Shown here: positions 2,289 through 63,467 of the stretch, piece after piece
Layout: every line of letters begins with the position of its first letter
Numbering within the stretch: the stretch's first letter is position 1
Assembly (NCBI GenBank): GCA_035221665.1
Contig: CM069155.1
Location: 40,734,001 to 40,798,000 of the forward strand
Length of the DNA stretch: 64,000 bases
Source: Okamejei kenojei
Lineage: Eukaryota
Reading direction: 5' to 3'
Made by a program: the position numbers and the translations under genes
Notes under the pieces: generated by a model
Database searches by the model: none
What the model was told of the DNA's origin: nothing
The model's input: only the letters and a program-made list of their open reading frames with translations

Positions 2289-2303
2289 AGAGCACGCAGA
2301 CAG

Positions 2304-2975: not shown

Positions 2976-2976
2976 T

Positions 2977-3027
<51 letters not shown>
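2976..3027. repeat. Poly-G tract (~50 nt)
   Basis: Direct observation; other G runs at ~1078-1095 and ~26020-26057. Confidence 0.9.
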
Positions 3028-3028
<1 letters not shown>

Positions 3029-4445: not shown

Positions 4446-4505
4446 ACCATTCACACCATCCTGTTGTCGTCGGCCAATGAATGGAGGGGTTCCTATAAAA
4501 AAGAA

Positions 4506-4835
4506 CACAGAGTGCTGGAGTAACTCAGCGGGTCAGGCAGCATCTGTGGAGAACATGGATAGGTGACGTTTCACAGAGTGCTGGAGTAACTCAGCGGGTT
4601 CGGCAGCATCTGTGGAGAACATGGATAGGTGACGTTTCACAGAGTGCTGGAGTAACTCAGTGGGTCAGGCAGCATCTGTGGAGAACATGGATAGGTGACG
4701 TTTCACAGAGTGCTGGAGTAACTCAGCGGGTCAGGCAGCATCTGTGGAGAACATGGATAGGTGACGTTTCACAGAGTGCTGGAGTAACTCAGCGGGTTAG
4801 GCGGCATCTCTGGAGAACGTGGAGAGGTGATGTTT
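4506..4835 (-). repeat. Five tandem copies of a 66-bp Penelope-tail unit
   Basis: Unit cacagagtgctggagtaactcagcgggtcaggcagcatctgtggagaacatggataggtgacgttt starts at 4506, 4572, 4638, 4704, 4770. Confidence 0.95.
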
Positions 4836-6910
4836 CGGTCGGGGCTCTATGGACTGTTTGTGGGAGGGGGGAGGGAGAGAGGTGAGGCCGGACAGAGTGG
4901 GGCAGGTAATAGGCAGACGCAGGCGAGGGGGGGTTTGATAGACAGATGGTTGGAACAAACGCCAGAGATAAAAGCAGAAGGTGCGAGACAGACGTTTGAA
5001 GAGTTTGATTGAGGAGTATAGCCTCCTGTTCTAGGAGGTTGTCGGACTGAGTGGAGGGGAGGCTGAGTCAGGAGGGTGGTCTGGGGCTTCCTCGTCCAGC
5101 TGTTGCACTCAGATAACCTCGCCGGTCCAAGGGGCACTGTCTGCATCCCGCTAGTGTACTCAATGTAGTCATCAAATCACTTGTCAGGATACTAATGTAC
5201 AGCTAATTGTGATTAAGGCATCACTGGCAGTTCATCCGGCGAAGGTGTCCAACTGTGGGATGTGAGAGCTCGCTGTTCACTGAAGTTGTTCTCACGGCTG
5301 CTGCTGCTGTCAGTACGATTAATGATGCCCCTCTCCATGAGCTTCATTCATTCCGTCTGATGGGGGGGGGGGCAAGTGAAACAAAGATATCATAAAAGGG
5401 GCAAATAAATTGTCACCTGCTGTCCTTTCCACAGAGTCCATGCCGGCCACGAGCATCTGTCAACACTAGTTCTGTAACCCCACTTTCTCATCCATTCCCT
5501 ACGCACTAAGGGCAATTTACAGATGCCAATTATCCTACAAACCTGGGGTACACAAAAGGCTGGCGAAACTCAGCGGGTGCAGCAGCATCTAAGGAGCGAA
5601 GGAGATAGGCAACGTTTCGGGTCGAGACCCTTCTTCAGACTGGTCAGGGATCAGGGAAACGAGAGATATAGATGGTGATGTGGAGAGATAAAGAACAATG
5701 AATGAAAGATATGCAAAAAAGTATCGATGATAAAGGGAACAAGCCATTGTAAGCTGTTTGTGGTGTGAAAATGAGAAGCTAGTGCGACTAGGGTGGGGGA
5801 GGGAGATAGAGAGAGAGGGAATGCCAGGGCCCGAGGGCTGAGGGAGAGGTGGGAAGGTGAGGAGACAGCAAGGGTTAACAGAATTGAGAAAATTCAATGT
5901 TCAAGCCAAAGGATGCAGACTCCCTAAGCGGAATATGACGTGCTGTTCCTCCAACTTGCGTGTTGCTCACTCTGGCCGTGGAGGAGGCCCAGGACCGAGA
6001 GGTCAGATACGGAATGGGAGGGGGAGTTGAAGTGCTGAGCCACCGGGAGGTCGGCTTGGTTAATGCGGACCGAGCGGAGGTGTTCGGCGAAACGATCGCC
6101 AAGCCTCCGCTTGGTCTCACCGATATAGATCATCTGGCATCTGGATGCAGTAGATGAGGTTGGAGGAGGTGCAGGTGAACCTCTGTCGGACCTGGAAGGA
6201 CTGCTTGGGTCCCTGAAAGGAGTGGAGGGGGGAGGTGAAGGGACAAGTGTAGCATTTCTTTGCGGTTGCAAGGCAAAGTGCCCAGGGAAGGGGTGGAGCG
6301 GGAGGGAAGGGAAGAATTGACAAGGGAGTTGCGGAGGGAGCGGTCTTTGCGGAAGGCAGACAGGGGGGGAGATGGGAAGATGTGGCGAGTGGAGGGGTCA
6401 CGTTGGAGGTGGCGAAACTGGCGGAGGACTATGTGTTGTATTTGCCGGCTGGTGGGGTGAAAGGTGAGGACTCTGCCCTGTTTGCGAATGGGGGAATGAA
6501 GAGAGAGGGCAGTGTTGCGGGGTATGGAGGAGACCCTGGTGCGAGCCTCATCTATAGTGGGGGAGGGGAATCCCCGTTCTCTGAAGAATGAGGACATTTG
6601 TGATGACCTGGTCTGGAACACCTCATCCTGGGAGCAGATGCGGCGTAGACGGAGGAATTGGGAATAGGCGATGGAGTCCTTACAGGAAGCAGGGTGGGAG
6701 GAAGAGTAGTCCAGGTAGCTGTGGAATGGGAGGGGGAGTTGAAGTGCTGAGCCACCGGGAGGTCGGGTTGGTTAATGCGGACCGAGCGGAGGTGTTCGGC
6801 GAAACGATCGCCAAGCCTCCGCTTGGTCCCACCGATGTAGCTCATCTGGCATCTGGAGCAGCGGATGCAGTAGATGAGGTTGGAGGAGGTGCAGGTGAAC
6901 CAAATGACTC

Positions 6911-7442
6911 CCAACGTGACCCCTCCACTCGCCATACCTTCCCATCTCCCCCCCGTCTGCCTTCCGCAAAGACCGCTCCCTCCGCAACTCTCTTGTCAAT
7001 TCTTCCCTTCCCTCCCGCTCTACCCCTTCCCCGGGCACTTTCCCTTGCAACCGCAAGAAATGCTACACTTGTCCCTTCACCTCCCCCCTCCACTCCTTTC
7101 AGGGACCCAAGCAGTCCTTCCAGGTCCGACAGAGGTTCACCTGCACCTCCTCCAACCTCATCTACTGCATCCAGATGCCAGATGATCTATATCGGTGAGA
7201 CCAAGCGGAGGCTTGGCGATCGTTTCGCCGAACACCTCCGCTCGGTCCGCATTAACCAAGCCGACCTCCCGGTGGCTCAGCACTTCAACTCCCCCTCCCA
7301 TTCCGTATCTGACCTCTCGGTCCTGGGCCTCCTCCACGGCCAGAGTGAGCAACACCGCAAGTTGGAGGAACAGCACGTCATATTCCGCTTGGGGAGTCTG
7401 CATCCTTTGGGCTTGAACATTGAATTTTCTCAATTCTGTTAA
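6911..7442 (+). pseudogene. Frameshifted C-terminal fragment of Penelope ORF (Cys linker + GIY-YIG endonuclease)
   Basis: Translation in ORF 6588..7442 and neighbouring frames; an 8-bp deletion disrupts the IYCIRCSRC motif. Confidence 0.85.
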
Positions 7443-7679
7443 CTCTTGCTGTCTCCTCCCCTTCCCACCTCTCCCTCCGCCCTCGGGTTCCTGGCATTCC
7501 CTCTCTCTCTATCTCCCTCCCCCACCCTAGTCGCACCAGCTTCTCATTTTCACACCACAAACAGCTTACAATGGCTTGTTCCCTTTATCATCGATACTTT
7601 TTTGCATATCTTTCATTCATTGTTCTTTATCTCTCCACATCACCGTCTATATCTCTCGTTTCCCTGATCCCTGACCAGT

Positions 7680-7707
7680 CTGAAGAAGGGTCTCGACCCG
7701 AAACGTC
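7680..7707 (+). ncRNA. Minimal type-I hammerhead ribozyme-like core in Penelope pLTR
   Basis: CTGAAGA + stem II GGGTC-tc-GACCC + GAAAC-GTC (palindromic ACGT mini stem III, GUC triplet). Stem I pairing is only ~2 bp, so activity is uncertain. Mirror copy at 5611-5638 (-). Confidence 0.65.
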
Positions 7708-7892
7708 GCCTATCTCCTTCGCTCCTTAGATGCTGCTGCACCCGCTGAGTTTCTCCAGCCTTTTGCGTACCCTCGATTCTCCAGCATCTGCAGTTCCTTC
7801 TTTAACACTTTACCCTACAAACCTGCATGTGTTTGGGATGCGGGAGGAAATCGGAGCACCCGGAGGAAACCCGCGTGGTCACACGGAGAACG

Positions 7893-8025
7893 GGCTGGGA
7901 GATTGCAACCTTCACGTGGTCCACCCTGTTTCGACTAAGGGAATCAACTCGATGTGCACAAAACAAATAGATCAAATAAGTTGACCCACAACTTTAGGCT
8001 GTGCACGCCATACGCAAGAAGACAA
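7893..8025 (+). mobile_element. Short non-LTR retroelement 3' fragment with (GAA)n-like tail, 8-bp TSD
   Basis: TSD ggagaacg (7885-7892 / 8026-8033); homologous copy at ~1510-1647. Confidence 0.75.
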
Positions 8026-8391
8026 GGAGAACGTGCAAACTCCACACAGACAGCACCAGAGGTCAGGATGGAATCGGGAACTCTGGCACTGTGAGGCAGC
8101 AGCTCTACCGTGGGGCCACAGCGCGCCCCTTAATCCAGTGCCTTGAGTCGTCGCCCAGTGCTGCCCTTTGGTCCAGTTAGTGTTGGTGCATCCTCTCCAA
8201 TGCTATTCATCCTGTCACTCTGCTCCATGTTCCTTGCTACAACCATTTCCTCACTTCACTTCACGTTGTAGTGAGAGCCACATACCCACCAAACCTTGGA
8301 GCAAAAACCCTCCTCAGCTCCTTTGTCTATGATGTTGCAGAGAAGGTTCACCGGGATGCTGCCTGCATGAGAGAGTGTTACCTATAGCTAT

Positions 8392-8663
8392 GCACGGCAG
8401 TGCTGCGGTAACGTTGCTGCCAGAGACTTGCCACAGGCGCTGTCTGTGCGGAGTTTGCAGGTTTTTCCCGTGACCGTGTGGGTTTTCTCCGGGATCTCCG
8501 GTTGTATTCCACATTCCAAAGACACAGGTTTATAGGCTAAATGGCTTGGTCTAGTTGTAAATTGTCCCCAGTGTGTGTGCGATAGTGTTAGTGTGGGGGG
8601 ATAGCTGGTCAGCACGGACTCGGTAGGCTGAAGGGCCTGTACCCACTCTGTATCTCTAAACTA
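8392..8663 (+). mobile_element. HE1-like SINE
   Basis: gcacggcagtg…gtgcggagtttgcagg…ggctgaagggcctgt…gtatctctaaacta. Confidence 0.7.
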
Positions 8664-8884
8664 TGAGGGGTTGGACAAACAAAGATCTGCAGCTGCTGGT
8701 TAATACACAAAAAGACATTGAAGAAGTGGCCCAACGCGAAACACCACTAATCCATGTCCTCCAAAAGATGCTGCCTCACCCGCTGAGTTAGTCCAGCACG
8801 TTGTGTCCTTTTGGACAAGCTTGGATTGTTTTCGCTGGAATGCCGGAGGTTGAGGGGAGGCCTTTTAAAAATTATAAGTTTAAA

Positions 8885-9052
8885 AAAGAACTGCAGATGC
8901 GGGACAATCAAAGGTAGACAAAAATGCTGGAGAAACTCAGCGGGTGAGGCAGCATCTATGGAGCGAAGGTCTCGACCCGAAACGTCACCTATTTCCTTCG
9001 CTCCATAGATGCTGCCTCACCCGCTGAGTTTCTGCAGCATTTTAGTCTACCT
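8885..9052. mobile_element. Palindromic short Penelope-tail element inside a CR1 fragment
   Basis: 8909-8969 is the reverse complement of ~8996-9052; the spacer holds the hammerhead 3' half gtctcgacccgaaacgtc. Confidence 0.75.
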
Positions 9053-10049
9053 AAAATTATGAGAGGCATAGATTGTGTCCCCAATCCCAGGGTGGAAATG
9101 TCAAAGACTGGAAGGCAGAACTTTAAGGTGAGAGGAGCAAAGTTTAAAGGAGAAGTCTTTGGGAGCCCCAAGTGAGGTTTGGAAAGACAGGATGGAGCAC
9201 GGAGCCAACAGCTGATAGCCATCATTAGCCAAGCCTGAAATCACTTCCAGGCATGGGTGTTCACTCACACACTGAGATAGCATTTGGTTTGGGCAACACT
9301 TCAGATGAATCAGGTCCCGAGTGGTGAAGTCTAGACTTTATTGGGGAGGCAGCAGACTAAGAGACACAAGGGATGTTGAGGGTGGGTGGGTGGATAGGAG
9401 GGACTGGAGACTTGGTCCAAAACTGCCAAGAACAGACAGAATAACTTAGCATTCTCACATGGATGGGTGAAGGTCACAGGCTGGTCAGGTGAAAGTGGGA
9501 GGCTGCAGAGCCATTTCCAGCTGCCAAGGAGGAGGGGACCTTGGTGGAACAAACAGCCCAGTCTGGTCCAATGTCTGCATTGAGATTCAAAGAAGATAAC
9601 CAATTTCCAGGCTGAATTGGAGAGACTTTGACTCTTTCAGCAAAACCGGAGCCAAGATCAGCCACAAATAAATTGAAAGGATCTTTCTCATTCCCACATG
9701 CAGACAATCAGTGCCTGCTCCGACACTAACCTCAAGCTGTGAGATAGAAAGAAGAAAGAGCTTCCTCTGGCCGTTCTCACACAAACATTCCTAACGGCGG
9801 CTGCAGGAGGTCAGACCCAGTGGTGACTGCAACTCAGATACCGTTGGCTGCAGCTGAACGTGGGGGACGGGAGCTGTGGATGGAGCATCATCAGGGAGGG
9901 GGGGAGGAAATTGAATGGGGAGGGGGAGGATAGTGGGGGAGGGGTAAGGGGTGGGGTGGTAGTGGATAGGGGGGTAGGGAACAGAGAGTGGGGGACAGGA
10001 GGCGAGAGGGCAAATGATGGGGTTGTACCCTGGTGATAGAAGGGACAGG

Positions 10050-10205
10050 GCAGTGGACAGAGATGGTGGGGGACAGCTGGACAGAGGATGGGGCAGTGGA
10101 CAGAGAGGGGGCAGGAGATGGAGAGGGTGGGGGGCAGGTGGACAGAGGGGGTGGGGAGCAGGTGGACAGAGAGGGTGGGGAGCAGGTGGACAGAGAGGGT
10201 GAGGC
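10050..10205. repeat. G-rich ~24-bp minisatellite (ggtggacagagagggtggggagca)
   Basis: Several degenerate tandem units in a strongly G-skewed region. Confidence 0.75.
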
Positions 10206-10309
10206 AGGTTGCGGGGGGGGGGGGGGTGTCAGTGTCAGGGAGGATACGTTGCCCGGGTGATGGGTCTGGGCCTGGGCGGCGGGGAGAGGCGGGTGGGGGC
10301 GTTGCCATG

Positions 10310-10507
10310 GAGACGGTGGAGGCCGGTTCTCTGGATACTTTCAAGAGAGAGCTAGATAGGGCTCTTAAAGATAGCGGAGTCAGGGGTTATGGGGAGAAGG
10401 CAGGAATGGGGCACTGATTGGGGATGATCAGCCATGATCACATTGAATGGTGGAACTGGCTCAAAGGGCCGAATGGCCCACTCCTGCACCTATTGTCTAT
10501 TGTCTAC
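10310..10507 (+). mobile_element. CR1 3' end
   Basis: VEAGSLDTFKRELDRAL…gatcagccatgatc…ctattgtctattgtcta. Confidence 0.85.
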
Positions 10508-11796
10508 TGAGTCTATGGACTGGGGCACTCAGGCAGACAAAGAACTTGTGATTGATTTTTAAAATCCAGTTTCTCATGATGTTGGCCAAGTTGGCAAACC
10601 AAACATTTATTATTCACCTTGAACACTTTCAGAAGTCTGGGAGCGCTCCAGCTGACACCGTGCAGAGAAGCCACTGCCTCACGGCGCCAGACACCCAGGT
10701 TTGATCCTGACCTTGCGTGCTGCCTGTGCGAAGTTCACACATTCTACCAGTGACCGTGTGGGTTTCCATTAGAACACAGAAAATACAGCACAGGAGCCGG
10801 CCCTTCGGCCCACAATGCTTGTGCCATGATAGGGCATCTTAAAGGCAGCACTTACTCAATATGATCCTGGTAGACAAAAATGCTGGAGAAACTCAGCGGG
10901 TGAGCCAGCATCTGCAGTTCTTTCTTAAAAAATATGATCCTGGAATCAGCTGTGGAACAGGGTGTTTGAGGCGAGAGTTTCGGGCGTTGAGTGAAGTCGA
11001 CGTAAAGAGCAGAGAACAGCTCGGGTGGTTGGAGAGGAGATCACGAGCCTGGAGGTTGATTACGATTAAGATCAGGATTCAGCCCCTGAGCACAATGAGC
11101 ACAGCACAGAATGTTCTGGAGGAGCCACAGAGCCAATACAAATCCTGTGAAGTTAATGGAAGGGAAGATTAAAATGTGCACGCATTGGGCCTGCAGCCTG
11201 TTCAGCCAGGAGTCAGGCAAAGCTGTTGAACAATCAAGCCTCCATCTGGTTCAGATCTGGTACAACATTACATTTGCCACTGGCTCATCGCGGTTGGTGA
11301 ACAGACGTAAAAGGCAACAGATGCTGGGAAAACAAAGTTTAAATAAAACAGGAACATTCTGGAAGCACTTAGCAGGTCAGGCAACATTTGTGGAGATGGG
11401 TCATTGATCTGAACCATGCTCTCTATTTCTCTCTCCAAAGATGCTGCCTGGCAGACACAGATTAACTGAAACCGGGTTCATCTGCTGCCAGGATGGTTTA
11501 GTGTTCTGTCATTCATTTACAACAGCTGAGATTAGTTATGGCTTCATCATACTGCAGGCAGAACAAAGAAAGCGCTGGAGGAACTCAGTGGGTCAGGCAG
11601 CATCCGTGGGGGGAATTGCCCGTGGGGGGATGTTTTGGGTCGAAACCCTGCATCAGGAGAGATTTGCCAGTGTTTATTCTCCAGATTCCAGCATCTGCTG
11701 CGCCTTGTGTCTCCACACAACAGGGCGGGTGCGGTTAAGGGGCACTTCTCAGGAAAGTTACCCAGCAAATGTGGGCCGCTGGTCCACACTTCGGAC

Positions 11797-12337
11797 CGGC
11801 ACGGTGGCGGAGCGGCAGAGTTCCTACCTTTAAGGGCCTGTCCCACTTGGCGATGTTTTCGGTGACTGCCACCGTCATTGACTGACGTATCAGGTCGCCA
11901 AAAGATTTTGAACATTTCAAAATCCTGCAGTGACAAAAAAAATGTTGCGACACTTGAGGAGACACCGCGCGTCAATACGTCGTCACGCCACGTCACCACC
12001 GCGGCTTTTTCAGTGACCTGATACGTCAGTCAATGATGCCGACAGTCGCCGAAAAACTCGCCAAGTGGGACAGGCCCTTTACAGCACCGGTGACACGGGT
12101 TTGATCCTGAATACGGCTGACGTCTGTACGAAGTTTGTACGTTCTCACTGTGACCGCGTGAGTTTTCTCCAGGTGCTCTGGTTTCTCCCACACTCCAAAG
12201 ATGTATGGGTTTGTAGGCTTTGGTAAAAATTGTAAATTGTCCAGAGTGTGCAGAATAGCGCTAGTATACGGGTGATCGCTGGTCGGCGTGGACACGGTGG
12301 GCTGTAGGGCTTGTTTCCACGCTCTATCTCTAAACTA
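11797..12337 (+). mobile_element. HE1-like SINE interrupted by Harbinger MITE
   Basis: ggcacggtggcggagcggcagag…gggtttgatcctga…gtttgtacgttctc…ctatctctaaacta. Confidence 0.8.
11833..12078. mobile_element. PIF/Harbinger-type MITE (246 bp, long TIRs, TTA TSD)
   Basis: TTA|AGGGCCTGTCCCACTTGGCGA…TCGCCAAGTGGGACAGGCCCT|TTA; TIRs extend ~75 bp; inserted in a tRNA-SINE head. Confidence 0.88.
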
Positions 12338-14056
12338 CAGAAGGCAAGTTGGGCAAGGTGATAGTTGGGAGGTTGTGGCAAGGTGAAGCTGGGTGTGCTC
12401 AACATCAGCTGGCAAAGGACACAGGTGCCAGGGTACTGCCCTCACATAGAGGGGAAGTGCCCAGGGTGGGGCAAGACCCCGGGGACAATGGTGCGGGCAC
12501 AGGATGGGCAGCATCGCCACTCACTCCTGGGGACGGGTTTGATCACTCTCCTGTGCCAGGGCCAGGTCGGGACTTCCAGCCTCTCCGTGACGCTGTTGGG
12601 ACCAACATATGAACCTTCCCCTGGCCACCTCCTTCAGAAAGCAACCATCTCCACCGTGAAACACTGCAGACGAATCACGTAACCCACTGACTGGCCAAAT
12701 GGAAAGATTTAGCAAGAACAAATTAAAAATAGTTTCTCACAGCACAGAACAACAATGAACAGGCACATTAGAATGTGTTGAAAACAGTTTGAGTCTGTTC
12801 CACTGTCAGAAATGTTCAACCTTCTGCTGGTTTATATTAGCTGCTGGGCATTTGTCTACTCAATCAATCTTCCTCAGCTGCTAATATTTCACTGCATCTC
12901 CTGCTTTCCTTTCAGCCATGCATTATTCAGGAAGAATCTCGGTGCTGTTGCAATAATTTGGCAAGTACATTGGTTGTCACACATGGCGTTGTGGGCTGTA
13001 TTTCACAGTCCAATATAAAGTGAAAAGGCTTCACTGGTATCGCTGGTAATAAAGTGTAATGTCTTGCTTTGACCTGAGCCACTGCTCCTCGCCTGGGTAA
13101 GTCTCACACATTGCAGAATTAGCTGCAAGATTAAAGTGGCATAGGTGACGTGTTTGAAGAACTGTCCGTCCCCAGGGATCTGTTGAGATTGTATTTCTGC
13201 CAGTAATATTTACACTGCAAAAGTATTGAAGTCAAGTCTCTGATTCACCGTGTCATTTAGCTGTTGACAACCCGAGCAAAACTACTGCTGGTGTACAATT
13301 CTACGTTCACCCTCGATGTCCCGGTTGCCAGTGGATTATGACACGTCTTAGCCGTTCCCCTCATTTCACCTCCAATGCCTTAACCCGAGGGCACAATTGA
13401 AGCTGAGTATCCTTACCTCAGAAAAGATGTAAAAAGCTGGAGTAACTCAGCGGGTCAGACAGCATGTCTCACACTGTCTCGGAGCAAGGATCATGTGCAG
13501 AGAGTTTGGAGCAATCAGGTTGGTGTTCTATGGAGTGAAGAATGAGTGTGGATGTTATTGAAACGTAAAGTTCTGATAGTTGGATAGAGGTAGGATCTTC
13601 TCTGTAGCAAGAGGTGGAGAATATCTAGAAGCAGGAGACTGGCTCAGAATATGGGGCAAAATATTTAGAACTGGGGAGAGGAGAAATAGCTTCAGTCAGA
13701 AGATGGTGAATCAACATATTTATGGAAATAATTATTTATGGGGGAGAACAGGAATATAGTTTTGAGAGAGAGGATAGGCTTTGCTCGTATTGAATGGGAC
13801 GGCAGACTGGAAGGGCTGAATGGCCTACTCGTGGATATTTTCTGTGCCTGACCATCAATGATGAAATGGGAAGGGTCACGGACAGTGTTGTCAGGTGCGG
13901 TGTGCTGACCAACAACAGTAGGTTGGTTGCACACGGGCCACCTCGCTTCAAACGTGGACATGAGAGGAAAGCTGAGAAGTCACTGCCTTATCTTCAAAGA
14001 CCATTGTTGAGTTTGAAGTCAGTGGTGAATCGAGGGAAAACACTTTGTGGCAAGTC

Positions 14057-14425
14057 ATAGAAACATAGAAAATAGGTGCAGGAGTAGGCCACTCGGCCCT
14101 TCCAGCCTGCACTGCCATTCAATATGATCATGGCTGATATATCCAACTCAGTGTCCTGTACCAGCCTTCTCTCCATACCCCATGATCCCTCTAACCACAA
14201 GGGCCACATCTAACTCCCTCTTAAATATAGCCAATGAACTGGCCTCAACTACCTTCTGTGGCAGAGAATTCCAGAGACTCACCACTCTCTATGTGAAAAA
14301 TATTTTTCTCATCTCGGTCCTAAAATACTTCCCCCTTATCCTTAAATTGTGACCCCTTGTTCTGGCAGTAATTGTGAACAATCTTCCTGCATCTATCCTG
14401 TCCAACCCCATAAGAATTTTGTAAG
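14057..14425 (-). mobile_element. CR1 3' end
   Basis: catagaaacatagaaaataggtgcaggagtaggcc… typical CR1 3' UTR and tail on the minus strand. Confidence 0.85.
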
Positions 14426-15181
14426 GTCAATAATCCTCTCTGGCTAAACCCCTCTCTTCACCATGTGAGGGATAAAGTGATTAAACCCCATTAAAGTAAG
14501 GAGTTTTAAAGAGAATCCGAACTGAGAGGGGCTGGAGAGAGGATTCTGACACAGCTGTGTCTGAAGGTTGCCAGACCCATCCTTGAGTCCTTGAGTAAGA
14601 AGTAATAGCATTGTATAGCAGTAGAAGGGAGTGATGTAGAGAGATCCATATCAGTGGAAGGGAGTGATAGATGGGACCCTTGTCACTATAGCTTAGCTTT
14701 AGTACTGATATAGGAGAACTGAGAGGGTTCACTAGGAGGTGAGTAAAACTAGGGTAGGTCATGAGCAACTGAGCATGCTTAATAGAATAAATGAATATTA
14801 CAACACACCCCTGGTCAAGAAACTGCTCATTACCATGAACATGTTTGAACATGCGATGTATGATATGGGAGGTGCGAGGGGATGTACGGTGGGATGTACC
14901 TACAGATTGTGCACCTCAGACCCTGATTGGAGAAGGGTCCAGAGGGGAGGTTGAATGTAAAATTCTGTGTATAAAGGGGAATGACTTCTTTGGCTTCGGT
15001 GTGTCTCGATTTGGAGAGGCACCCGGGTCTGCAGAGTCGAGAGGAATAAAGAACTCTTGCTTCCAAGATTTAGTCTTTGAGCATTAATTGTGAGCACAAA
15101 GCGTATCTCACAACCACCTCCAGTTTAAATTCCAGTTGGAATATTTTGGAGGACCAAGTAACCAAGAACCAACCAAGAACC
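14426..15181 (+). mobile_element. Short LINE 3'-end fragment with (AACCAAG)n tail, split by the solo LTR and itself inserted in a CR1
   Basis: Sequence on both sides of the LTR rejoins; tail aagtaaccaagaaccaaccaagaacc; host CR1 text 'aattttgtaag|tttctataagat' resumes at ~15185. Confidence 0.55.
14464..15112 (+). mobile_element. Solo LTR (649 bp) of an LTR retroelement/ERV
   Basis: Termini TGTGAG…CTCACA; 4-bp TSD acca (14460-14463 / 15113-15116); TATAAA 14970-14975; AATAAA 15045-15050; reverse CCAAT (gattgg) ~14925. Confidence 0.8.
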
Positions 15182-16786
15182 AAGTTTCTATAAGATACAC
15201 AGCACAAAGAAATGTGTTTGTGGCTGTACCTCAGCGCCTGGTCATCAGTGCGTGAGTTGCCAGGGCAGGTCCTGCCATGTCCAATGTGTCTACAATAACC
15301 TGCCCCCCAACCAGCCAGAAGTTGCATATTTTCCTCACAGTCGAGCTGATTCAATTCTGTTTACAACTCGGATAATAAAAAGCCCTGGTCAATATTGAAG
15401 CTTGGCACAGTATCAGATAACAATATTCACGCCATTGCAGTGCTCAAAAATATATAATTTTATAAATTATACAATGAAGTATTCTCAGCAGGAGAACCAT
15501 GTCATATCATCAATACCCCGCGATAGAGCAGTAATTGTGATCATTGGCGCCCTTTCATTGTTAATATCACGTTTACCTGCTCAACACGAGCTCTCCTTTG
15601 TACAGCTGAGTACAAATCACTGACAAAAGAATGTAATTTAGATTTTATCTAAAATGTATTTCTAGTGGGGCCCATGGGTGTGAGGAAGACTGTGCAATTC
15701 ATGCATTAAATGATTCTTAATGCACTGCAATCAATACCAAACAATCAGTTTGCAGAATCTCAAAATCTGATGTCCAAATTGTGGATAGCTCTGTTTTCCC
15801 TGTTCAATGACATTGTTGTCGGTGGAAGAACTAATTCTGGCTCTGGGGCAGAGTCAGCCTCTGCCTTTGGTGTCTTTTAATTCTGTCTGAGACTGATGTG
15901 ATGAAACAAAGTGATGTGATGGTGGGAGAGTGGTTCGCTCAGTCTCAGTCCTATCCTAACAGGAAGAATCTCACAGCAACAGCAAAGGCAAAATAATTGG
16001 CAAAAAAAAAGCAAAGGGATGATTGGGGCCATGAGAGGAAATAGATGTAGACATGAAGATTTGCAAACTGACAAGGCAGGGACTGGAGCAGAGACGAACT
16101 GGCAAACCTTTTCAAACTTTGTACAAAGATGTCTTTCTCTGCTGTAAGGTTCTATAATCCTGCAGTAATTGGCAACGTAATTTAGAACTAAATGTGAACT
16201 TGATATAAAATAGCTAAGCCCTTTCGAGCCAGAGTTTTACTCTACAGCTGAATATGTCAGTGTTAATCTGGAAGTACTAATGCAAACACAAAAGCAAAAA
16301 TATTACAGATGCTGAATGAAAATAGGAAATGCTGGCAATACCGTGCAGTCAACTAGAGTTAAGGAGAGGGAAGCTGATCAAGGACTGGCTCAGGATCCAG
16401 GACCTGGTGAAAGTTGCAGATTAAGCAAACTCTGTGTGTGAGGAAGTGGGAAATGGCAAGGATAGAAGGTAGGAGAGACGATGGCAATACAGGATGAGAA
16501 CAGGACAAGTTGAAAGACAAAGAAAAGTACAGAGGATGTGAAAGTGGAAGAAGTCAAATTATTGTCGAAAATTAGTAACAGAAATTGCTGTAGATAGTTG
16601 TTGAAAATGCTGAATCCAAAACTATTGAACTCAATATGGAGTCAAGAAAAGATGCATCGAAGGTGGACACAAAAAGCTGGAGTAACTCAGTGGGACAGGC
16701 AGCAGCTCTGGAAAGAAGGAATTGGTGATGTTGCGGGCTGAGACCCTTCTTCAGACTGGTTAGGCATAAGGGAAACGAGAGATATA

Positions 16787-18395
16787 CAGTGGCTTGCAAA
16801 AGTTTTCATACCCCTTGAACTTTTCCACATTTCGTCACGTTACAACCACAAACGTAAATGTATTTTATTGGGATTTTATGTGATAGACCAACACAAAGTG
16901 GCGCATAATTGTGAAGTGGAAGGAAAATTATATATGGTTTTCAAATTTTTTTACAAATAAAAAATTGAAAAGTGTGGCGTGCAAAAGTATTCAGCCCCCT
17001 TTACTCTGATACCCTTAAATAAAATCGAGTGCAACCAATTGCCTTCAGAAGTCACCTAATTAGTAAATAGAGTCCACTTGTGTGTAATCTAATCTCAGTA
17101 TAAATACAGCTGTTCTGTGAAGGCCTCAGAGGTTTGTTAGAGAACAATTAGTGAACAAAACAAGCATCATGAAGCCCAAGGAACACACCAGACAGGTCAG
17201 GGATAAAGTTGTGGAGAAGTTTAAAGCAGGGTTAGGTTATAAAAAAATATCCCAAGCTTTGAACATCTCACGGAGCACTGTTCAATCCATCATCCGAAGA
17301 TGGAAAGAGTATGGCACAACTGCAAACCTACCAAGACATGGCCGTCCACCTAAACTGACAGGCCGGGCAAGGAGAGCATTGATCAGAGAAGCAGCCAAGA
17401 GGTCCATGGTAACTCTGGAGAAGCTGCAAAAAATCCACAGCTCAGGTGGGAGAATCTGTCCACAGGACAACTATTAGTCGTGCACTCCAAATATCAGGCC
17501 TTTATGGAAGAGTGGCAAGAAGAAAGCCATTGTTGAAACAAAGCCATAAGAAGTCCAGTTTGCCACAAGCCATGTGTGGGACAGAGCAAACATGTGGAGG
17601 AAGGTGCTATGGTCTGATGAGACCAAAACTGAAGTTTTTGGCAAAACGTTGTGTGGTGGAAAACTAACACTGCACATCACCCTGAACACACCATCCCCAC
17701 TGTGAAACATGGTGGTGAGGGGGAAACATCATGCTGAGGGGATGCTTTTCTTCAGCAGGGACAGGGAAGCTGGTCAGAATTTGATGGGAAGATGGATGGA
17801 GCCAAATACAGGGCAATCTTGGATGAAAACCAGTTGGAGTCTGCAAAAGACTTAAGACTGGGGCAGAGGTTCACCTTCCAGCAGGACAACGACCCTAAAC
17901 ATACAGCCAGAGCTACAATGGAATGGTTTAGATCAAAGCATATTCATGTGTTAGAATGGCCCAGTCAAAGTCCAGACCTAAATCCAATTGAGAATCTCTG
18001 GCAAAACTTGAACATTGCTGTTCACAGACACTCTCCATCCAATCTGACTGAGCTTGAGCTATTTTGCAAAGAAGAATGGGCAAGAATTTCAGTCTCTAGA
18101 TGTGCAAAGCTGGTAGAGACATACCCCAAAAGACTTGCAGCTGTAATTGCAGCGAAAGATGGTTCTACAAAGTATTGACTCAGGGGGGCAGAATACTTTT
18201 GCACGCCACACTTTTCAGTTTTTATTTGTAATACAATTTGGAAATCATGTATAATTTTCATTCCACTTCACAATTATGCACCACTTTTTGTTGGTCTATC
18301 ACATAAAATCCCAATAAAATACATTTACGTTTGTGGTTGTAACGTGACAAAATGTGGAAAAGTTCAAGGGGTATGAAAACTTTTGCAAGCCACTG
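16787..18395 (+). mobile_element. Tc1/mariner (Tc1, DD34E) DNA transposon, full length, IR/DR-type ~210-bp TIRs, TA TSD
   Basis: TA|CAGTGGCTTGCAAAAGTTTTCATACCCCTTGAAC … GTTCAAGGGGTATGAAAACTTTTGCAAGCCACTG|TA; inner repeat gcaaaagtattcagcccc ~16981; inserted into a Penelope tail. Confidence 0.96.
17169..18178 (+). pseudogene. Tc1 transposase, frameshifted
   Basis: MKPKEHT…GYKKIS…GRPPKLT (HTH), WSDETK, FQQDNDPKHT, WPSQSPDLNPIENLW, …GSTKY*. Indels near 17427, 17560, 17650, 17720 and 17780 break the frame. Confidence 0.93.
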
Positions 18396-20434
18396 TAGGT
18401 AATGATGTGGAGAGAGTCTATCTTTGGTTTAAACCAGCATCTGCAGTTCCTTCTTACACAAAGATGCATAGAAGATTTATGAGGTTGTGTAGACTAGGAC
18501 TTTATTCCTTGGAGCGCAGGAAACTGAGTGGTATAAAATCATGAGGGGAATAGAGAGGGTGGATACAGACTCTTTTACCCAGGGTCGGGGAATCAAGTAT
18601 AAGAGGACATAGATTTAAGGTGAGGTGAAAGTTTCAATAGGGGGGGGAGAAATGCTTAAAATGCTGGAATAGCTCAGTGGATCAGGCAGCATCTCTGGAG
18701 AATGTGGATAGGTAGGACATAATTTTGGGTTGCAACCTTTTTTCAGACAGATTGTGGGGTTGAGAGCTGAAAGAGGGAGGGACTGGACAAAGTCTGATAT
18801 GTGGGTGTAGGCCAGGAGGATGTTTGATTGGCAGATGGTTGGACAAAGGCCAGAGATGAAAAGAAAACGTGTGAGATAGGTGGACGGGTCAGGATGGAAA
18901 ATGTGCCTGTGGGAAATATGCTCTAGGAGTGACGTCATTGTGATTGTGTGGAAGTTAAAGAGAGGAAAACCAGGCGGGGTCGACTGGTTTGCGGAAGAAG
19001 AGTGAAGCAGAAAGGGAATATTTGAGGAAGAAAAACATACGAGAAACATATTGAATATTTGAGAACACAAATGTTTGAAAAAAGCCATTACTTTTCTTAA
19101 AGGTTTTGCTCATCCTGTTGCACCAGTCAGCTGGAAAAATTTAAAATGGTTCCGAGCTGAATAAAAATGGATCTTTAGGAAAGTCTTGGCTGTTCGGTAA
19201 CCTGCCATACATTATTGGAAAGGTTATTTAAAAAGTAAAACTGAACAGGAAGGTAATGGGAAGTGTGTGTCAAAAAATGTTGGAAATGTTGGAGTGCTGG
19301 CCTCTCATGTTGCTTCTTGCAGCTTTCCATCTTTGTTCCCAAGTCCAGCATCTGAAGTGTCTTCTGGCTTTCCAATATTTTTTGTCAGTTCCAAAAATTA
19401 ATTATTCCAGACAGGATAGGGAGATTCATGAGCTCTTGCTGTGCAGGGCGAAGAAAACCAAGGATCTTTGAGGAAAACAAGTCCCATTTGTCCAAGCCTG
19501 GCCCATATTCCTTTTAAATGTCATGTCGTTCACACCTCCACCACTTCTTCTGGCAGCTCATTCCATATGCACACCATCCACTATGTGAAAAAGCTGCCCC
19601 TTCGAACCTTTTAATTTTTTTCTGCTCTCACCTTAAAACTCTGCCCTCTGGACTCCCGCACCCTGTGTGGTAAAGTCTGTGGTGATGCACCTCATGATTT
19701 TATATATCACTATACATACACCTCAACCTCCTCTGCTTCAGGGGTAAAAAGCTCTAGCTTATTTAGTATCTCCCTATGAATTAAACCTTCCAGACCAGGT
19801 AACATCCTTAAATCTTTATTTTGCACACTTTTCAGTCTAATTACAACAGAATACTTAAGAGTTTGGTTGGATAGTTTTTATTGATTATTCAGCAACAAGA
19901 GAACATAAACTTCAGAGCATAAATACAAAAATTTGCAGAACCTTTTCTTGTTCCTCCAGTGAGATTTTTAATTTCCATCTTGCAGAGTTTTATACTTTAT
20001 AGCAGAATTACTTAAGGCCTTCAGATACATGTAATCATTTGAATATAATGTTTGATTCATCAAAGGAAAGCTGACATTTTGGGCTGATTGTGCCCACGGT
20101 GTGTTGATGGTTTTTGGGAATTTCCTTCCAGTTCTAGTTTGCACATCAGTGCAATCTGAACTCGCATGTCTGTCTGTGCATTGGAGTGCAGAAATTTGGA
20201 CTGCCAACACTATCAGATGCATCTGATCTCTCACTCTCTTCCTCAACATGCTATCAATTGTTTTAGGAGTATTTTGAGCTATGAGCATATCCTTCACTTC
20301 TGGCCCCTCAGCCTAACTGTGACCATCGTTGTTGCACAGCCCATTGTTGAATGAAGTCTCCGTTCTTCCTCAACAATTTAGGTGAGTTCTTACTCTTTCC
20401 TTAACAGTCATTTCTCTCTTCTTCCCTCTCCCGC

Positions 20435-20830
20435 CAGGCAGATAATATAGAAGCTTGAAAGAACGTACCACCAGATCTGGGAGCAGCTTCTTCCCTTCTG
20501 ATCAGACCACTGAACAGTCCTCAGATACGTTAGGGTGCAGTTCCGATCTTCCAACCTACCTCATTGTGGGCGCTGGACTTCTCTGTCACTGCTGTCAAAC
20601 TATGTCCTGCATTCTGATATTTTTCTCTTTGCTCTACCTGTTGTACTTGTGTATAGCATGATCAGATGTAATGGAACAGCATGCAAAAAAAGCTTTCAAC
20701 TGTACCTTGGAACGTGTAACAATAATAAACCAATAATGTTCCTGTAAAGCTGCAGCAAGTAAGAATGTCATTGTTCGCTCCCAGTGCATATTGCAATTCA
20801 ACATTGTGACTCGCTTGGTCTTGAATAGCA
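20435..20830. mobile_element. Rex1/Babar- or L2-type LINE 3' fragments
   Basis: RTTRSGSSFFP motif, 3' UTR ending aataataaac, followed by a second tail (aatgtcattgttc…ttgaat). Confidence 0.55.
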
Positions 20831-22059
20831 CAAATAGAAATGTAGATGCATCTGATGGATAACACAGAGATCGGGCTGCAAAGTGTCAAGGTTGAAAACT
20901 AAATATGAAAGGTTGCTTACTTTTGGAAGAGGTGATATGAAAGAAGAGGTGTGGTTGCACTGCTTTGAAAGGATGGGTTGAAGGCAGTGGAGAGGAAGGA
21001 CTTAGCTGTAAAATCAATGTGTGTGTGTAGCTAAGAAAAAGTGGCAAATAAACATTCTATAGAGTTGTAGATAGGTTCCTATTCTATGGAAAAGTACGGC
21101 ATGTGTTAACTCAGAATTTAAAAGGTGCATGTGCTAGTTCGATATAATGTAATTAACATGGAGTTAATGCTATACAGAAGGTCAGACCACACTAAATTGT
21201 AATCCACAGTGGAAAAATGAATGCCCTGGAGTGGTATTAAGTCTGTTTAAAAAAAAAAATCAATATGTTGATAGGATGGGTTATTTTAGATCTAATATTA
21301 TGCAAGGAGAAAGGGTAAATAAGATCATCTGGCAGCTTTAGGAGTGTGATTATATATAATATAAAGATTGAAATGATTTAGTTCAAACTGAAACTAAGGT
21401 CTTAAATATCAACAAACCAAACTTCAAAAGCATTAGGTGATGGGTACAATGAGAGGCTCAGATACTAAATTAAGTTTAATGACATGAAACCAGAATGGCC
21501 AACCGTAAAAAAAAAAAAAAGCCATGGATTTTGCAGGTAAATCCAATTTATTTAGGTAAAATACGGGACCCTCACAAAGGAAAAATAGTCCGGTCACTGA
21601 CTAACAAGAGACTGGAGATGATATAGGATCAGCAGGAAAGGCTTCCAACATGAGAAAGTGCCATGAGAATGGTAGCTAAGCCTAAGAATGGAAACGTTTC
21701 GAATCCTGAAGAGAAAAATCAAGATATTGATAAAGGAAAGTACCTCAATAAGTTCCACCCCTACAGTAGCTGCATAAGGAAAAGATTAATTTAAATGTGC
21801 ACCCCTTATGGACCCTGAAGCCTGACATGCAACATGAAATATAATAAGGCAACAGAAAATCTTCCAGAAATAATGAACAAAATAACTAAAACATTTTTTT
21901 TTGTTAAAACCTACACTAGGATTTAGCAGAGGCATTGTGGAGAGGGTAAAAGGCTGTGTTTGCCTTCTTCCAAAATTCTTTGTATCAGGAATGGCTCCTA
22001 TAATTGAGTAGGGAACAAAGTACATTAACAAATTTAAGGGAGAGTATGGAGGGAAAAGT

Positions 22060-23400: not shown

Positions 23401-23689
23401 GAAACAAATGATTATAGGTCAGAGCAGGTATGTGGTACATGAGTGACCTGGTGGGACCTCACTAAATAGAGTAGGGCCAAAGTTTAAAGAAGATGTGCAG
23501 GGCAAGAACATAAGAGTCGTGGGTGCTTGGAACGAGCTACTATGTAAGAGTGGTGGTGGATGCAAGGAATGGAGTATGGATCACGTATGTGCAGGCAGGT
23601 AAGAAGGGGCCTTGGCATAATATTTGGCATAGACACCGTGGGCTGAAGGGTCTGTACCTGTGCTGTATTGTTCTGTCTACTCTTGTTTC

Positions 23690-26018: not shown

Positions 26019-26058
<40 letters not shown>

Positions 26059-27278: not shown

Positions 27279-59172
<31,894 letters not shown>

Positions 59173-60607: not shown

Positions 60608-60739
60608 GCAGTCTGAGGAAGGGTCCCAACCCAAAACATCACCTATCAATTTTCTCCAGAGATGCTGCTTGACCCGCTGAGTCAAGCATTCTGTGTCTAT
60701 CTTTAGCATAAGCCAGCATCTGCAGCTCCTTATTATACA
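60608..60739 (+). mobile_element. Short Penelope-tail insert with TSD
   Basis: TSD atgaatt (60601-60607 / 60740-60746); starts gcagtctgaggaagggtcccaaccc. Confidence 0.7.
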
Positions 60740-63367
60740 ATGAATTACTGTTGTGAACAACTTCATATTTTTCTGTGTTACATGTGAGTTTCCACAATTA
60801 TTCATTTAGCATGTCTATATTTCCTTGAAGCCAAAACGCTTGCAAATTTTTATCAATTACTTGATCCCAGCAGACCACTAACCAGATGAATACCACGACC
60901 TAACCCAAGGGTTGTGATATCTCCTGGATATGCCTCCGAACATAAGCAGTTCAGACTTCAGCGAAACTCCTCAAGTTACAGGCACATCACATACATATGT
61001 GCGTGTTGGAAATCACAATGGTTTCCAGAATTCCAATGATAGCTTTCCCTTGGTTATCAGGCTATAGGGTACAGTCCGACGTACCGCTGCCCCAATCTGC
61101 ACATTGAACTTTGTCTCTAGATCTGAAGCACTACAATGCTGAGAACTATATTCTGCACCCTGCATCTTTCCCTTTGTTCTACCTATTGTACTTGAGTTAG
61201 ACTTGATGGCATATATGTATAGTATTATCTGATTTGATAGCATGCAAAGCAAGGGTTTTCACCGTACCTTGTAGATATGACAATAATCAATCTAACCTAC
61301 ATCTAAACCTAAAGGATCACCCATGTGTAGTTGTTGTACATCATCTGTCCTCCTATCCCCATGTGACCTCATCTAATTCAACTTTTTATTTAGGTACCCT
61401 TCAATGTAGTGTTTTATTCCATGACTAATGAATGGATTAAGTTAAGGGCAACCAAAAGTAAAACATTACTATTAAATTACTTACTGCAAACCCTTTTCAA
61501 TTTTTTGCCTCTTGGCTCTGGTAAAAAAACATTTTCCTAAACTGATATTATTAATGTCCAAATCTCACTGAGAGACTCAGGCTTGAAACTGGTGTCCAAT
61601 GAACTCATCCAAAGTCTGTCAAATCTAATCTAATATCTCCTTTGGTTCAAGCACCACTCTTATCAGGTTGTGAAGTGCCCTGGGCCATTACACAAAATTA
61701 AGATGCTGTTTAAATATGGAAACAGCTGCAACTCAACATGGAAAGAGAAGCAGTATTTTTGGAGGCAAACTCTCAGTCAACTTGATAGAGTTGTCTCAAT
61801 GATAACTGGTTTTCACCTTGACTAGCAGTTGGTGAACACACAAAATCCACTCTGTGTCTAATGGACCAGCATGGGCAATGTCTAATCCAGTTGCAATTTG
61901 CAAAGCCATTTGTGTGCCTATGTTGCAGTTTGCCTCATGGGTGATTTATACTCAAGAATTCCAATGATAGCTGGAGCTTTCTATCTCCATATACACATTC
62001 CTGCTAATGGAAGGGGATAATCCACATAATCACAAAACATAGAGCTTTGTGCAGGAAGACTACCATACTGTAGTTAAAACACTTTCAAATTGGAGAACGC
62101 CATCAAATATATCCAGCTCAGTCAACAATTGATTTTTCAAGATCGTGCAAAGTTTGGTCACATCTCATCCAAACAATTTAATTCTTCATCGATGGGAATG
62201 TCAAACGTTAGGAAACTAGATAAACATTGATGTTGAAAATGGTGAATATTTATAGCTTAATCATTTTTAAAAGAGGAAATCAAATATCAGTTATTCTACC
62301 ACAGATGTTGTATAAATGCTATCAGGCACCAGGGCCTTTTGGTTCATTTTTGTTAGCTAGTTCAAACCATGCAATCATCAGAGATCATACAGGGAAAGAT
62401 CAGGGGACACATTTTACTTTGATGCAGTAATTAGCAATCCTTTCCATGTGTTTTGTTCGTTGTACACATCTGTAAGGAACATTAACATTTGAAGTACTTT
62501 CCCGAGGTGAATCAGTGCATCAAGCTAATTTATTATTCAACAGCTGCCAACAGATTTAGTTATTCTTTTTATGTACTTAGGATAGTCAGCCAGCTAACAC
62601 CGTAAATGCCCAGTACAGAGTTTGCAAACACTCATGTAGTGTTTTAAAATGTGTCACGTTGGAAAATATAGATGACTACGATAGGGTGGAGCTTTAGACT
62701 TATTATGAGCCCATGTTAATTTAAAGCAAAACACCCTAAATACCATCTTACAGTAACACTAGTTGCACAACATATTTTCAAGAATCATGGTTCCAGAGAC
62801 TGGTTGCCATTAAGACTTTAATTGAAAAATGTCAATACCAATACAATAATGAATGCGGCATAAATGTAACATTCATTTGGGGTGGTAAGAAAAAAATGTT
62901 TTTGGTGCTTTAATTCTTTGCTTTCTCTACATCTGCTTTATTTTTCTAAACTTATGGCAGTTTCACTGCAGATGCGAGGATCTTCTGAAGAACCGCCAGT
63001 ATGTTTAACTATCAAGACCACATGGGCAAAGGCAGAGTCATGCAATCTTCGAATGTACCATGGACGAGGCAAAAGATGGAATTCTAATCAAAATCCAAGG
63101 GGAAAAAAACACAATAGAATCAGCATTGATGCACACAAAGTTTTGAAATCTACTTTATTTAGTTTGGGGCAATCACACTTTGTTTTCAGAATAAGTGTTT
63201 GTGGACAAAAGATTAGCTTAAAATTGGATCAGATACACATTTGACCATTTATCAGGAATAGGTTCATATTGCTTTGGTTATTTGAATGTGGAGTGTAAAC
63301 ATTAAACATAAAAAAGTACCAGTAGTTCTTTCCAAAGAAACCGGTCTATGATGCATCTCATTTAAAT

Positions 63368-63467
63368 GCATCAGTCTGAAGAAGGGTCTCGACCCAAAAT
63401 GTCACCCATTCCTTCTCTCCAAAGATGCTGCCTGTCCCGTTGAGTTACACCAGCATTTTGTCTATCT
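63368..63467 (+). mobile_element. Short Penelope-tail insert with TSD
   Basis: TSD tcatttaaat (63358-63367 / 63468-63477); starts gcatcagtctgaagaagggtctcgaccc. Confidence 0.75.

What the first reader, a model, noticed from the sequence alone, without database searches (positions are those of the whole stretch)
5611..63403. Dispersed family of ~100-130 bp mobile units built around a Penelope hammerhead core, with 5' ends clustering at the ribozyme
Seen: the motif CTGAnGA-a-GGGTC.GACCC-GAAAC-GTC or decayed variants occurs at 5611-5638(-), 7680-7707, 16727-16754(-), 49040-49067, 55038-55065, 60613-60640 and 63376-63403, with partial copies at ~671-725, ~8968-8986 and ~57571. Independent short inserts with their own TSDs (55.0, 60.6, 63.4 kb), plus one at 49.0 kb without a clear TSD, begin within a few nt upstream of CTGAnGA. 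At least one other copy (~43634) appears to start just after the GTC triplet. Established: Penelope pLTRs carry minimal type-I hammerheads that act as dimers. Inference: this is a non-autonomous, retrozyme-like family mobilised by the GIY-YIG Penelope, with boundaries set by ribozyme structure or cleavage. Caveat: stem I is only ~2 bp here, so the core may be a structural relic.
Basis: partly seen in the sequence, partly recalled or inferred. Interest (0 to 1): 0.7.

Follow-up and report, generated by a model that had tools for sequence, protein, structure and literature searches.

The report
Penelope end stubs stopping before hammerhead
These short repeats are end pieces of a known kind of jumping gene (a Penelope-like element), about a million per genome, and most begin just in front of its minimal self-cutting RNA motif rather than at the cut site, likely because that is where the element's RNA starts.

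Summary
The motif is real at all stated places; the window holds 29 copies, the genome about 1.0 million (620 in 1.70 Mb). Each unit is the last ~93 bases of the pseudo-LTR of a Neptune-type RT/GIY-YIG Penelope, with or without a 36-base tail. 5' ends do cluster, but just before CUGA (22 of 46 young copies at -6..+1; 0 at the GUC cleavage site). Long copies that run into the ORF start there too (10 of 30), and short and long copies share haplotypes: no separate family. There are no monomer arrays; 205 of 620 copies sit head-to-head. Not a retrozyme, and cleavage does not set the boundary. Best reading (inferred, 0.55): the RT starts at the 5'-most copy of its internal start sites and runs off the capped RNA 5' end. 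Support: initiator-like YCAGTCT, excess G before it, template-jump chimeras. No RNA-end data were available. Rfam gave no hammerhead hit. The scan noted this family before on other DNA of this genome (60 notes).

The parts
5546..7808 (.). Composite head-to-head Penelope insertion (two 5'-truncated, rearranged copies), inserted in a SINE-like repeat; outer ends are the pLTR end (5546) and the tail end (7808); 16-bp TSD with 1 mismatch (5530-5545 / 7810-7825)
7164..7442 (+). GIY-YIG endonuclease-coding 3' end of the Penelope ORF (fragment)
   Evidence: no Pfam hit for this fragment; 95-98% identical copies with longer frames hit RVT_1 and GIY-YIG below Pfam's cut-off
7443..7772 (+). Pseudo-LTR; its last 93 bases (7680-7772) are the short unit
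7675..7681 (+). Initiator-like YCAGTCT that is also a usable 3' splice acceptor; 5'-end hot spot (-6..+1 around 7680)
   Evidence: initiator consensus recalled
7680..7707 (+). Minimal hammerhead core: CUGA-N-GA, bulged A, 5-bp stem II, GAAAC-GUC, 2-bp stem I
   Evidence: sequence; descriptor from PMC4209133
7773..7808 (+). 36-base optional 'tail'; second 3'-end peak
   Evidence: 3' ends at +92 in 12 and +128 in 11 of 47 young hits
5611..5638 (-). Hammerhead core of the inverted arm (keeps its upstream pLTR)
614..784 (.). Head-to-head pair of short units joined across the CAG-A-CTG centre near 692-698; left arm carries a tail
8912..9052 (.). Head-to-head pair, arms 58 bp, junction inside the core
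16665..16784 (-). Older-subfamily copy with ~30 bases of upstream pLTR, abutting the inverted repeat of a Tc1/mariner element
49036..49113 (+). Short unit with internal deletions, inserted in a LINE; starts G+AGT; no clear TSD
55038..55130 (+). Young short unit (0..+92) with ~14-16-bp TSD and 21-base filler
60609..60738 (+). Short unit with tail, 7-bp TSD
63368..63468 (+). Short unit, 10-bp TSD
43629..43698 (+). Partial unit starting at +23 to +28; end not fixable
4504..4845 (-). Five 66-bp tandem copies of +20..+85 of the unit; lack the CUGA half of the core
56945..58662 (.). Four further decayed copies (56945+, 57569+, 58032+, 58593-)
1241..34870 (.). Eight further decayed copies: 1241-, 3461-, 8719+, 10877-, 11569-, 13427-, 18658-, 34791+

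Best explanation
The units are the last ~93-130 bases of a Penelope-like retrotransposon's terminal repeat, inserted singly or head-to-head with target-site duplications, and they likely arise when the element's reverse transcriptase copies only the 5'-most stretch of the uncut, likely capped element RNA and runs off its start, a few bases before the hammerhead. Shown: identity with the pLTR of an RT + GIY-YIG element; two 3' ends (+92, +128); a 5' hot spot at -6..+1; none at the cleavage site; TSDs; the same 5' start in long copies; chimeras joined at that start. Inferred: the two 3' ends are the internal RT start sites (by analogy with anole Poseidon, PMC11167929); the transcript carries these sites twice (5' UTR and 3' end), so starting at the 5' copy gives a short run-off cDNA, like a retroviral strong-stop; the hot spot is the transcription start (initiator-like YCAGTCT, extra G from the cap); priming from both target strands, or snap-back, gives the head-to-head pairs; jumping to a second RNA gives the chimeras. 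The hammerhead is a passenger in these copies.
For: 5' ends: 22 of 46 young copies in 8 bases versus 7 in the 762 bases upstream, about 300-fold per base; 0 of 46 at +25..+31. 10 of 30 loci that contain the ORF start also begin at -4..+7. 8 of these 30 are chimeras of an ORF-containing piece (ending about 300-1200 bases downstream of the start), a few mostly purine or A-run bases, and a second unit starting at -3..+7; 3 of the 8 show one TSD around the whole. Base before AGT in solo copies: C18 G17 T7 A7, p=7e-4 for G among non-C; genome-wide G 1098, A 870, T 513; control position G 44, A 56 of the first 100 listed of 533, Fisher p=0.023; first non-reference base G in 19 of 35 at the edge versus 9 of 44 elsewhere, p=0.002. 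TSD in 33 of 108 solo copies, 0 of 216 flank-swapped controls. Head-to-head 205 of 620 against 27 expected; tail-to-tail 18. PMC11167929: internal RT start at two sites matching the tail, uncut RNA is the main template, no reads at the cleavage site. PMC11702581: an extra G marks full-length L1 5' junctions.
Against: No RNA 5'-end data: all runs were contigs, several probably DNA. The G excess is modest (56% of purines against 44% at the control), A is also above T, and G precedes +2 starts as well (6 of 6), so general purine-rich filler may explain part of it. Starts spread from -6 to +7, and 12 of 18 solo copies with CAGT have the templated T before it. The same site is a working splice acceptor, and in D. 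virilis the intron end, not the start site, maps to helix I (PMC4209133; PMC2377424). 16 of 30 ORF-start loci and 12 of 46 young copies extend upstream of the site. G before GT in solo copies is not significant (8 of 16, p=0.06).
Confidence: 0.55

Rival explanations
1. Ordinary 5' truncation of copies made from the 3' pLTR, with a strong stop at the edge of the hammerhead caused by RNA structure, a bound factor, or the splice acceptor (spliceosome or branch).
For: The site is a real acceptor: 3 exact genomic copies (2 loci) join the donor at +160 to -1. The 5' end and tail can pair in the predicted fold of the +128 form. D. virilis has its intron end at helix I.
Against: Spliced junctions are rare: at most 8 at 2 mismatches against 894 exact unspliced. 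Most solo copies keep the intronic AG (65 of 108 have A at -3, 75 have G at -2) with no shared upstream exon. The 5'-tail pairing is in the predicted fold of only 23 of 85 copies, has no covariation, is absent from +92 forms, and fold z-scores are -1.2 to +0.8. A pause explains the extra G and end-to-end chimeras less well.
Confidence: 0.22
2. A separate non-autonomous, SINE-like family that is itself transcribed from an internal promoter and re-copied.
For: Very high copy number (31,171 exact matches to one young 35-mer, against 894 to an ORF-start 23-mer); D. virilis Penelope has an internal promoter; one old haplotype is mostly short (15 short, 1 long).
Against: Short and long copies share haplotypes in every frequent subfamily; the nearest neighbour of a short copy is long in 45% of 185 cases against 25% by permutation; both 3' ends match the long element's.
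Confidence: 0.1
3. The boundary is made at DNA level: the endonuclease cuts or resolves an intermediate at this site of the pLTR.
For: The anole protein nicks its own pLTR DNA; PMC8557442 ascribes tails and inverted repeats to endonuclease resolution.
Against: The reported preference is AT-rich ATT, unlike this site; does not predict extra G or A-run fillers at chimera joints.
Confidence: 0.08
4. Retrozyme: hammerhead cleavage and circularisation define the unit.
For: Core residues fit the min-HHR pattern; 92 of 281 copies keep core and stem II; PLE-derived retrozymes exist in vertebrates.
Against: No start peak at +28; same-strand neighbour spacings scatter from 46 to 395 bases; units contain the cleavage site internally, uncut; stem I 2 bp; no Rfam hammerhead hit at E<=10; CpG-type decay hits G12 and 15.2/16.2.
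Confidence: 0.05

Closest known systems
EN+ Penelope-like elements, Neptune-type (PMC8557442, passages seen)
   Same: RT + C-terminal GIY-YIG, Cys motif in the linker, partial tandems, inverted 5' copies, 30-40-base tail, hammerhead in the pLTR, heavy 5' truncation.
   Different: About 1 million terminal stubs with one dominant 5' start; not described in the passages read.
[quoted passage not shown]
   Same: No loop 3, palindromic 15.2-16.2, extra base before stem II, G10.1-C11.1, mostly single dispersed motifs from truncated PLEs.
   Different: Helix I is 2 bp (4-5 bp in their Schistosoma families; 2 bp in D. virilis); copy number far above the 2,000-9,000 they list.
Anole Poseidon PAc in vitro (Frangieh et al. 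2024, PMC11167929, parts 1-2 of 4 read)
   Same: Two discrete 3' ends separated by a tail, about 90-130 bases past the hammerhead; uncut RNA as template; both strands extended.
   Different: There the ORF starts in stem II; here the first ORF ATG lies about 160 bases downstream. They do not report a 5' run-off hot spot.
Non-LTR retrozymes (Li et al. 2026 preprint, parts 1-3 of 5 read; Cervera and de la Pena 2020, search listing only)
   Same: PLE pLTR-derived, protein-free, type-I hammerhead.
   Different: Defined by tandem arrays of hammerhead-bearing monomers; here singles and head-to-head pairs with no fixed period.
Full-length L1 insertions with cap-derived G and twin priming (PMC11702581, passages); R2 snap-back and template jumping (PMC11371274, passages)
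   Same: Extra G at the RNA 5' end, inverted 5' junctions, jumps to a second template.
   Different: Those start at the RNA 3' end; here the start is inferred to be internal and near the 5' end.

Membership tests
EN+ Penelope-like element (Neptune type) | One ORF with RT and C-terminal GIY-YIG | tested here: met
   L043 and L044 frames (556, 559 aa) hit RVT_1 and GIY-YIG, both below Pfam's cut-off; no intact full ORF seen (L047 is broken)
EN+ Penelope-like element (Neptune type) | Partial tandem forming pLTRs, optional 30-40-base tail, inverted 5' copies | tested here: met
   L047 pLTR-ORF-pLTR; 36-base tail; inverted pairs
EN+ Penelope-like element (Neptune type) | Zn-finger-like Cys motif between RT and EN (Neptune/Nematis) | tested here: met
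   C-x4-C-x2-C before the EN; feature from PMC8557442
EN+ Penelope-like element (Neptune type) | Placement in the Neptune clade by RT phylogeny | not tested
   no reference set fetched
Minimal type-I hammerhead (min-HHR) | Core CUGANGA / GAAA / UH, extra base before stem II, G10.1-C11.1, palindromic 15.2-16.2 | tested here: met
   column counts over 281 copies; 92 intact (the first 10 bases were a selection criterion, so their conservation is inflated)
Minimal type-I hammerhead (min-HHR) | Helix I able to close the core | tested here: inconclusive
   2 pairs only (77 of 89 and 82 of 91 paired; third pair 8 of 91); dimer conformer -6.7 against -19.7 kcal/mol for the best dimer fold
Minimal type-I hammerhead (min-HHR) | Self-cleavage as dimer or with protein | not testable with these tools
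   needs a bench assay
Rfam hammerhead families | Covariance-model hit | tested here: not met
   no hammerhead family among 8 matches at E<=10; minimal forms are expected to escape these models (my knowledge)
Non-LTR retrozyme | Tandem arrays of monomers, each with a complete hammerhead | tested here: not met
   102 of 620 have a same-strand neighbour within 400 bases, spacings 46-395 with no period; the window's 66-bp array lacks CUGA. Arrays elsewhere in the genome are not excluded by a 0.06% sample.
Non-LTR retrozyme | Unit ends set by ribozyme cleavage | tested here: not met
   0 of 46 young and 13 of 620 total near +28
Non-LTR retrozyme | Abundant circular RNA | not testable with these tools
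   only contigs were served
Independent non-autonomous (SINE-like) family | Own lineage with diagnostic changes | tested here: not met
   shared haplotypes and nearest neighbours with long copies

The most novel reading that the evidence does not exclude
The million stubs are genomic footprints of a 'strong-stop'-like step in Penelope replication: RT starts 93 or 130 bases from the capped 5' end, runs off the cap, and then integrates, pairs head-to-head with a second such cDNA, or jumps to another RNA. This step would explain how pLTRs, partial tandems and inverted ends are built, and the hammerhead at the first bases of the RNA would mark or gate it without cutting. The hammerhead exon is also flanked by working splice sites that could loop it into a ~160-base circle or excise the ORF.
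Probability: 0.4. Interest if true: 0.6.

Novelty: new member of a known kind. Interest (0 to 1): 0.33.

Why it matters
How Penelope-like elements build their terminal repeats and what their hammerhead does are open questions. If the hot spot is the capped RNA start, about 3% of this genome records one intermediate of the cycle at base resolution, with 5' end, two start sites, head-to-head joints and template jumps all countable, and one 5'-end experiment would test it. It also warns that high minimal-hammerhead counts in such genomes are transposon stubs, not retrozymes.

Tried and rejected
Rfam at E<=10: no hammerhead; the mir-1756 match at 8937-9027 is the head-to-head palindrome. Pfam on window fragments: no Penelope domain hit, 0 of 5 such frames. 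PDB sequence search: 0 hits. Sequencing runs: 24 listed, all contigs, 3 on record as RNA (metagenomes, small share); two lay-ups show no molecule starts and no listed joint between the donor and the acceptor, and depth across the spliced junction is near nil: no evidence either way. Splicing as main cause: rejected on rarity. G excess before GT in inverted copies (14 of 18) was dropped because microhomology with the inverted arm explains it. From the 47 young hits I dropped 1 tail-only row; of the 25 at -6..+1, 3 belong to a sister subfamily with another upstream pLTR and were not counted as breakpoints; 5 ran past the reference; both arms of inverted pairs are counted. One search was meant as a junction control but the reference base was G, so it serves only as a copy count. 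5'-tail pairing as boundary-setter: weak. Lunse et al. 2017 could not be read (not held); I know it only from a review passage and recall. Supplements of the papers were not opened; alignments in PMC4209133 and PMC11167929 supplements may already include this motif or a 5' peak. The sequence look-up in earlier findings gave nothing.
Full report
Coordinates below are relative to C3 of CUGA (0 = window 7680). Cleavage would fall after +27.

1. Observation. All seven motifs are present as stated, and the partial ones too. A profile from 8 window copies finds 29 hits in the window and 327 in 0.90 Mb of arbitrarily spaced genome stretches, with 0 in reversed sequence. In 170 stretches (1.70 Mb) it finds 620, which scales to about 1.0 million copies and 2.9% of bases. 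One young 35-mer has 31,171 exact matches. The window lies in a gene whose last exon looks AUTS2/FBRSL1-like and the repeats look like those of a cartilaginous fish (both recalled, no call). TSDs in the window are clear at 55.0 kb, 10 bp at 63.4 kb, 7 bp at 60.6 kb, unclear at 49.0 kb. Three of the seven listed motifs (5611, 7680, 16727) keep upstream pLTR. The 43.6-kb copy may start at +23 rather than +28.

2. What the unit is. The window element 5546-7808 is two truncated Penelope copies head-to-head inside one 16-bp TSD. Its endonuclease piece has 123,527 first-look candidates in the genome. Locus L047 holds a near full-length copy: endonuclease end + pLTR, ORF, pLTR. Longer frames hit RVT_1 and GIY-YIG, below Pfam's cut-offs, and carry C-x4-C-x2-C before the endonuclease, the Neptune/Nematis linker (PMC8557442, passages). 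The unit is the last 93 bases of the pLTR, with or without a 36-base tail: 3' ends peak at +92 (12) and +128 (11) among 47 young hits. In the full element the same stretch is the 5' UTR; the first ORF ATG is at about +161. Several subfamilies with different upstream pLTRs all have YCAGT before CUGA.

3. 5' ends. Of 46 young hits (>=92% identical to the window element) that include the pLTR end, 5 run past the reference, 7 break between -742 and -33, 25 align from -6..+1 (3 of them a sister subfamily, leaving 22), 9 start at +4..+44, mostly inverted arms, and none at +25..+31. That is about 300-fold more breaks per base at the edge. Over all 620 hits, 13 start at +26..+30, fewer than in neighbouring bins. 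So the cluster is at the 5' edge of the core, and the cleavage site lies inside the unit, uncut. Of 281 copies with an intact start, 108 have unique flank upstream, 80 an inverted arm and 93 a shared upstream; 33 of the 108 have a 9-18-bp TSD against 0 of 216 controls.

4. Not a separate family. Among 30 loci chosen for containing the ORF start, 10 begin at -4..+7, 16 extend upstream and 4 begin at +38..+82. Short and long copies share haplotypes, and a short copy's nearest neighbour is long in 45% of 185 cases against 25% by permutation. The boundary therefore belongs to the element's template, not to a short family.

5. Signs of an RNA end. YCAGTCT fits the initiator consensus with A at -3 (recalled). 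The base before AGT in solo copies is C18, G17, T7, A7 (p=7e-4). Genome-wide exact counts are G 1098, A 870, T 513 (C not counted). At a control start (+1) the first 100 of 533 matches are G 44, A 56, near background and below the 56% at -4 (p=0.023). In young copies the first non-reference base is G in 19 of 35 at the edge and 9 of 44 elsewhere. An extra G marks full-length L1 junctions (PMC11702581, passage). The effect is modest: G also precedes +2 starts and fillers are purine-rich in general. Eight of the 30 ORF-start loci are chimeras: unit plus 300-1200 bases of ORF, a few purines or an A-run, then a second unit from -3..+7; three show one TSD around the whole. This fits run-off and a jump to another RNA's 3' end, as R2 does (PMC11371274, passages).

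6. Head-to-head pairs. 205 of 620 hits have an opposite-strand partner with 5' ends within 120 bases (27 expected); tail-to-tail 18. In 9 of 80 inverted copies the joint is the symmetric CAG-A-CTG (12 rows counting the other strand), which two cDNAs ending at -3 could form by a 5-base overlap (inference). The window's 614-784 pair is one. Inverted pLTRs with palindromic joints are known (PMC3846280, passages); the anole protein extends both target strands.

7. Splicing. The acceptor-like CAG at -2 is used: 3 exact matches (2 loci) join a donor at +160 to -1; at most 8 at two mismatches, against 894 exact unspliced. This shows rare copies of spliced RNA, either back-spliced or with the ORF removed. 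It is too rare to explain the hot spot but keeps a splice-related stop as a rival, since the D. virilis intron ends at helix I.

8. The ribozyme. The core fits the min-HHR of PMC4209133: 92 of 281 copies keep core and stem II; stem I has 2 pairs; changes follow CpG decay, with some U-G wobble and no clear compensatory change. Rfam finds no hammerhead. Folds are not unusual (z -1.2 to +0.8) and the hammerhead dimer conformer is far above the best fold. Activity in the parent element with protein help, as in the anole, is untested.

9. Mechanism. Shown: pLTR identity, two 3' ends, 5' hot spot, TSDs, pairs, chimeras. Inferred: RT starts at +92 or +128 of the 5' UTR copy on uncut capped RNA, runs to the start at about -3, often adds a base opposite the cap, and integrates alone, with a second cDNA head-to-head, or after a jump (0.55). 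Rivals: pause or splice-related stop (0.22), self-propagating short family (0.10), DNA-level cut (0.08), retrozyme (0.05). No RNA-end data could be had.

10. Comparison and novelty. It is a Penelope-like element with a min-HHR (features met) and not a retrozyme (arrays and cleavage-defined ends tested, not met; definition from the 2026 preprint). Six paper searches and one on fish repeats listed no report of this 5' hot spot; supplements and Lunse et al. 2017 were not seen, and repeat databases were not available. The scan's own notes hold 60 entries on this genome under these words; the eight shown reach the same reading, which I had formed before opening them (note). They are not independent support. 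Verdict: new member of a known kind, interest 0.33.

Noticed in passing
L203:1380-1640 (-), L204/L205: Genomic copies with an exact splice-type join of the donor at +160 to the acceptor at -1, so the hammerhead-bearing stretch behaves as an exon; L204 has the join on both arms of an inverted pair.
   Followed up: partly
L208, L211, L216, L219, L224, L225, L226, L235: Two-template chimeras: 5' part of the element ending within the ORF, short purine or A-rich filler, second short unit; suggests prematurely ended Penelope transcripts serve as jump acceptors.
   Followed up: partly
window 16785-18397: Tc1/mariner element with 186-bp inverted repeats and a broken transposase (HTH and DDE_3 hits), inserted next to a Penelope stub.
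   Followed up: no
window 4504-4845: 66-bp minisatellite (5 copies) born from +20..+85 of the unit.
   Followed up: partly
window 27279-28553 (-) and upstream minus-strand frames to about 59236: 424-aa frame and smaller exons of a host gene that looks AUTS2/FBRSL1-like (recalled; no Pfam hit); most of the window is its introns.
   Followed up: no
window 29843-29997 and 30921-31075: 155-bp direct repeat, 100% identical, 1078 bases apart; possible recent duplication or assembly artefact.
   Followed up: no
window 7670-7679 and sister subfamilies: A CTRAC-like word 2-4 bases before the CAG is kept across subfamilies whose upstream pLTRs otherwise differ; branch-point-like but unusually close to the acceptor.
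   Followed up: no
runs X1-X24: Near-identical element sequence in runs labelled with at least 8 coded organisms; depth steps at the same unit edges in other organisms' contigs.
   Followed up: no
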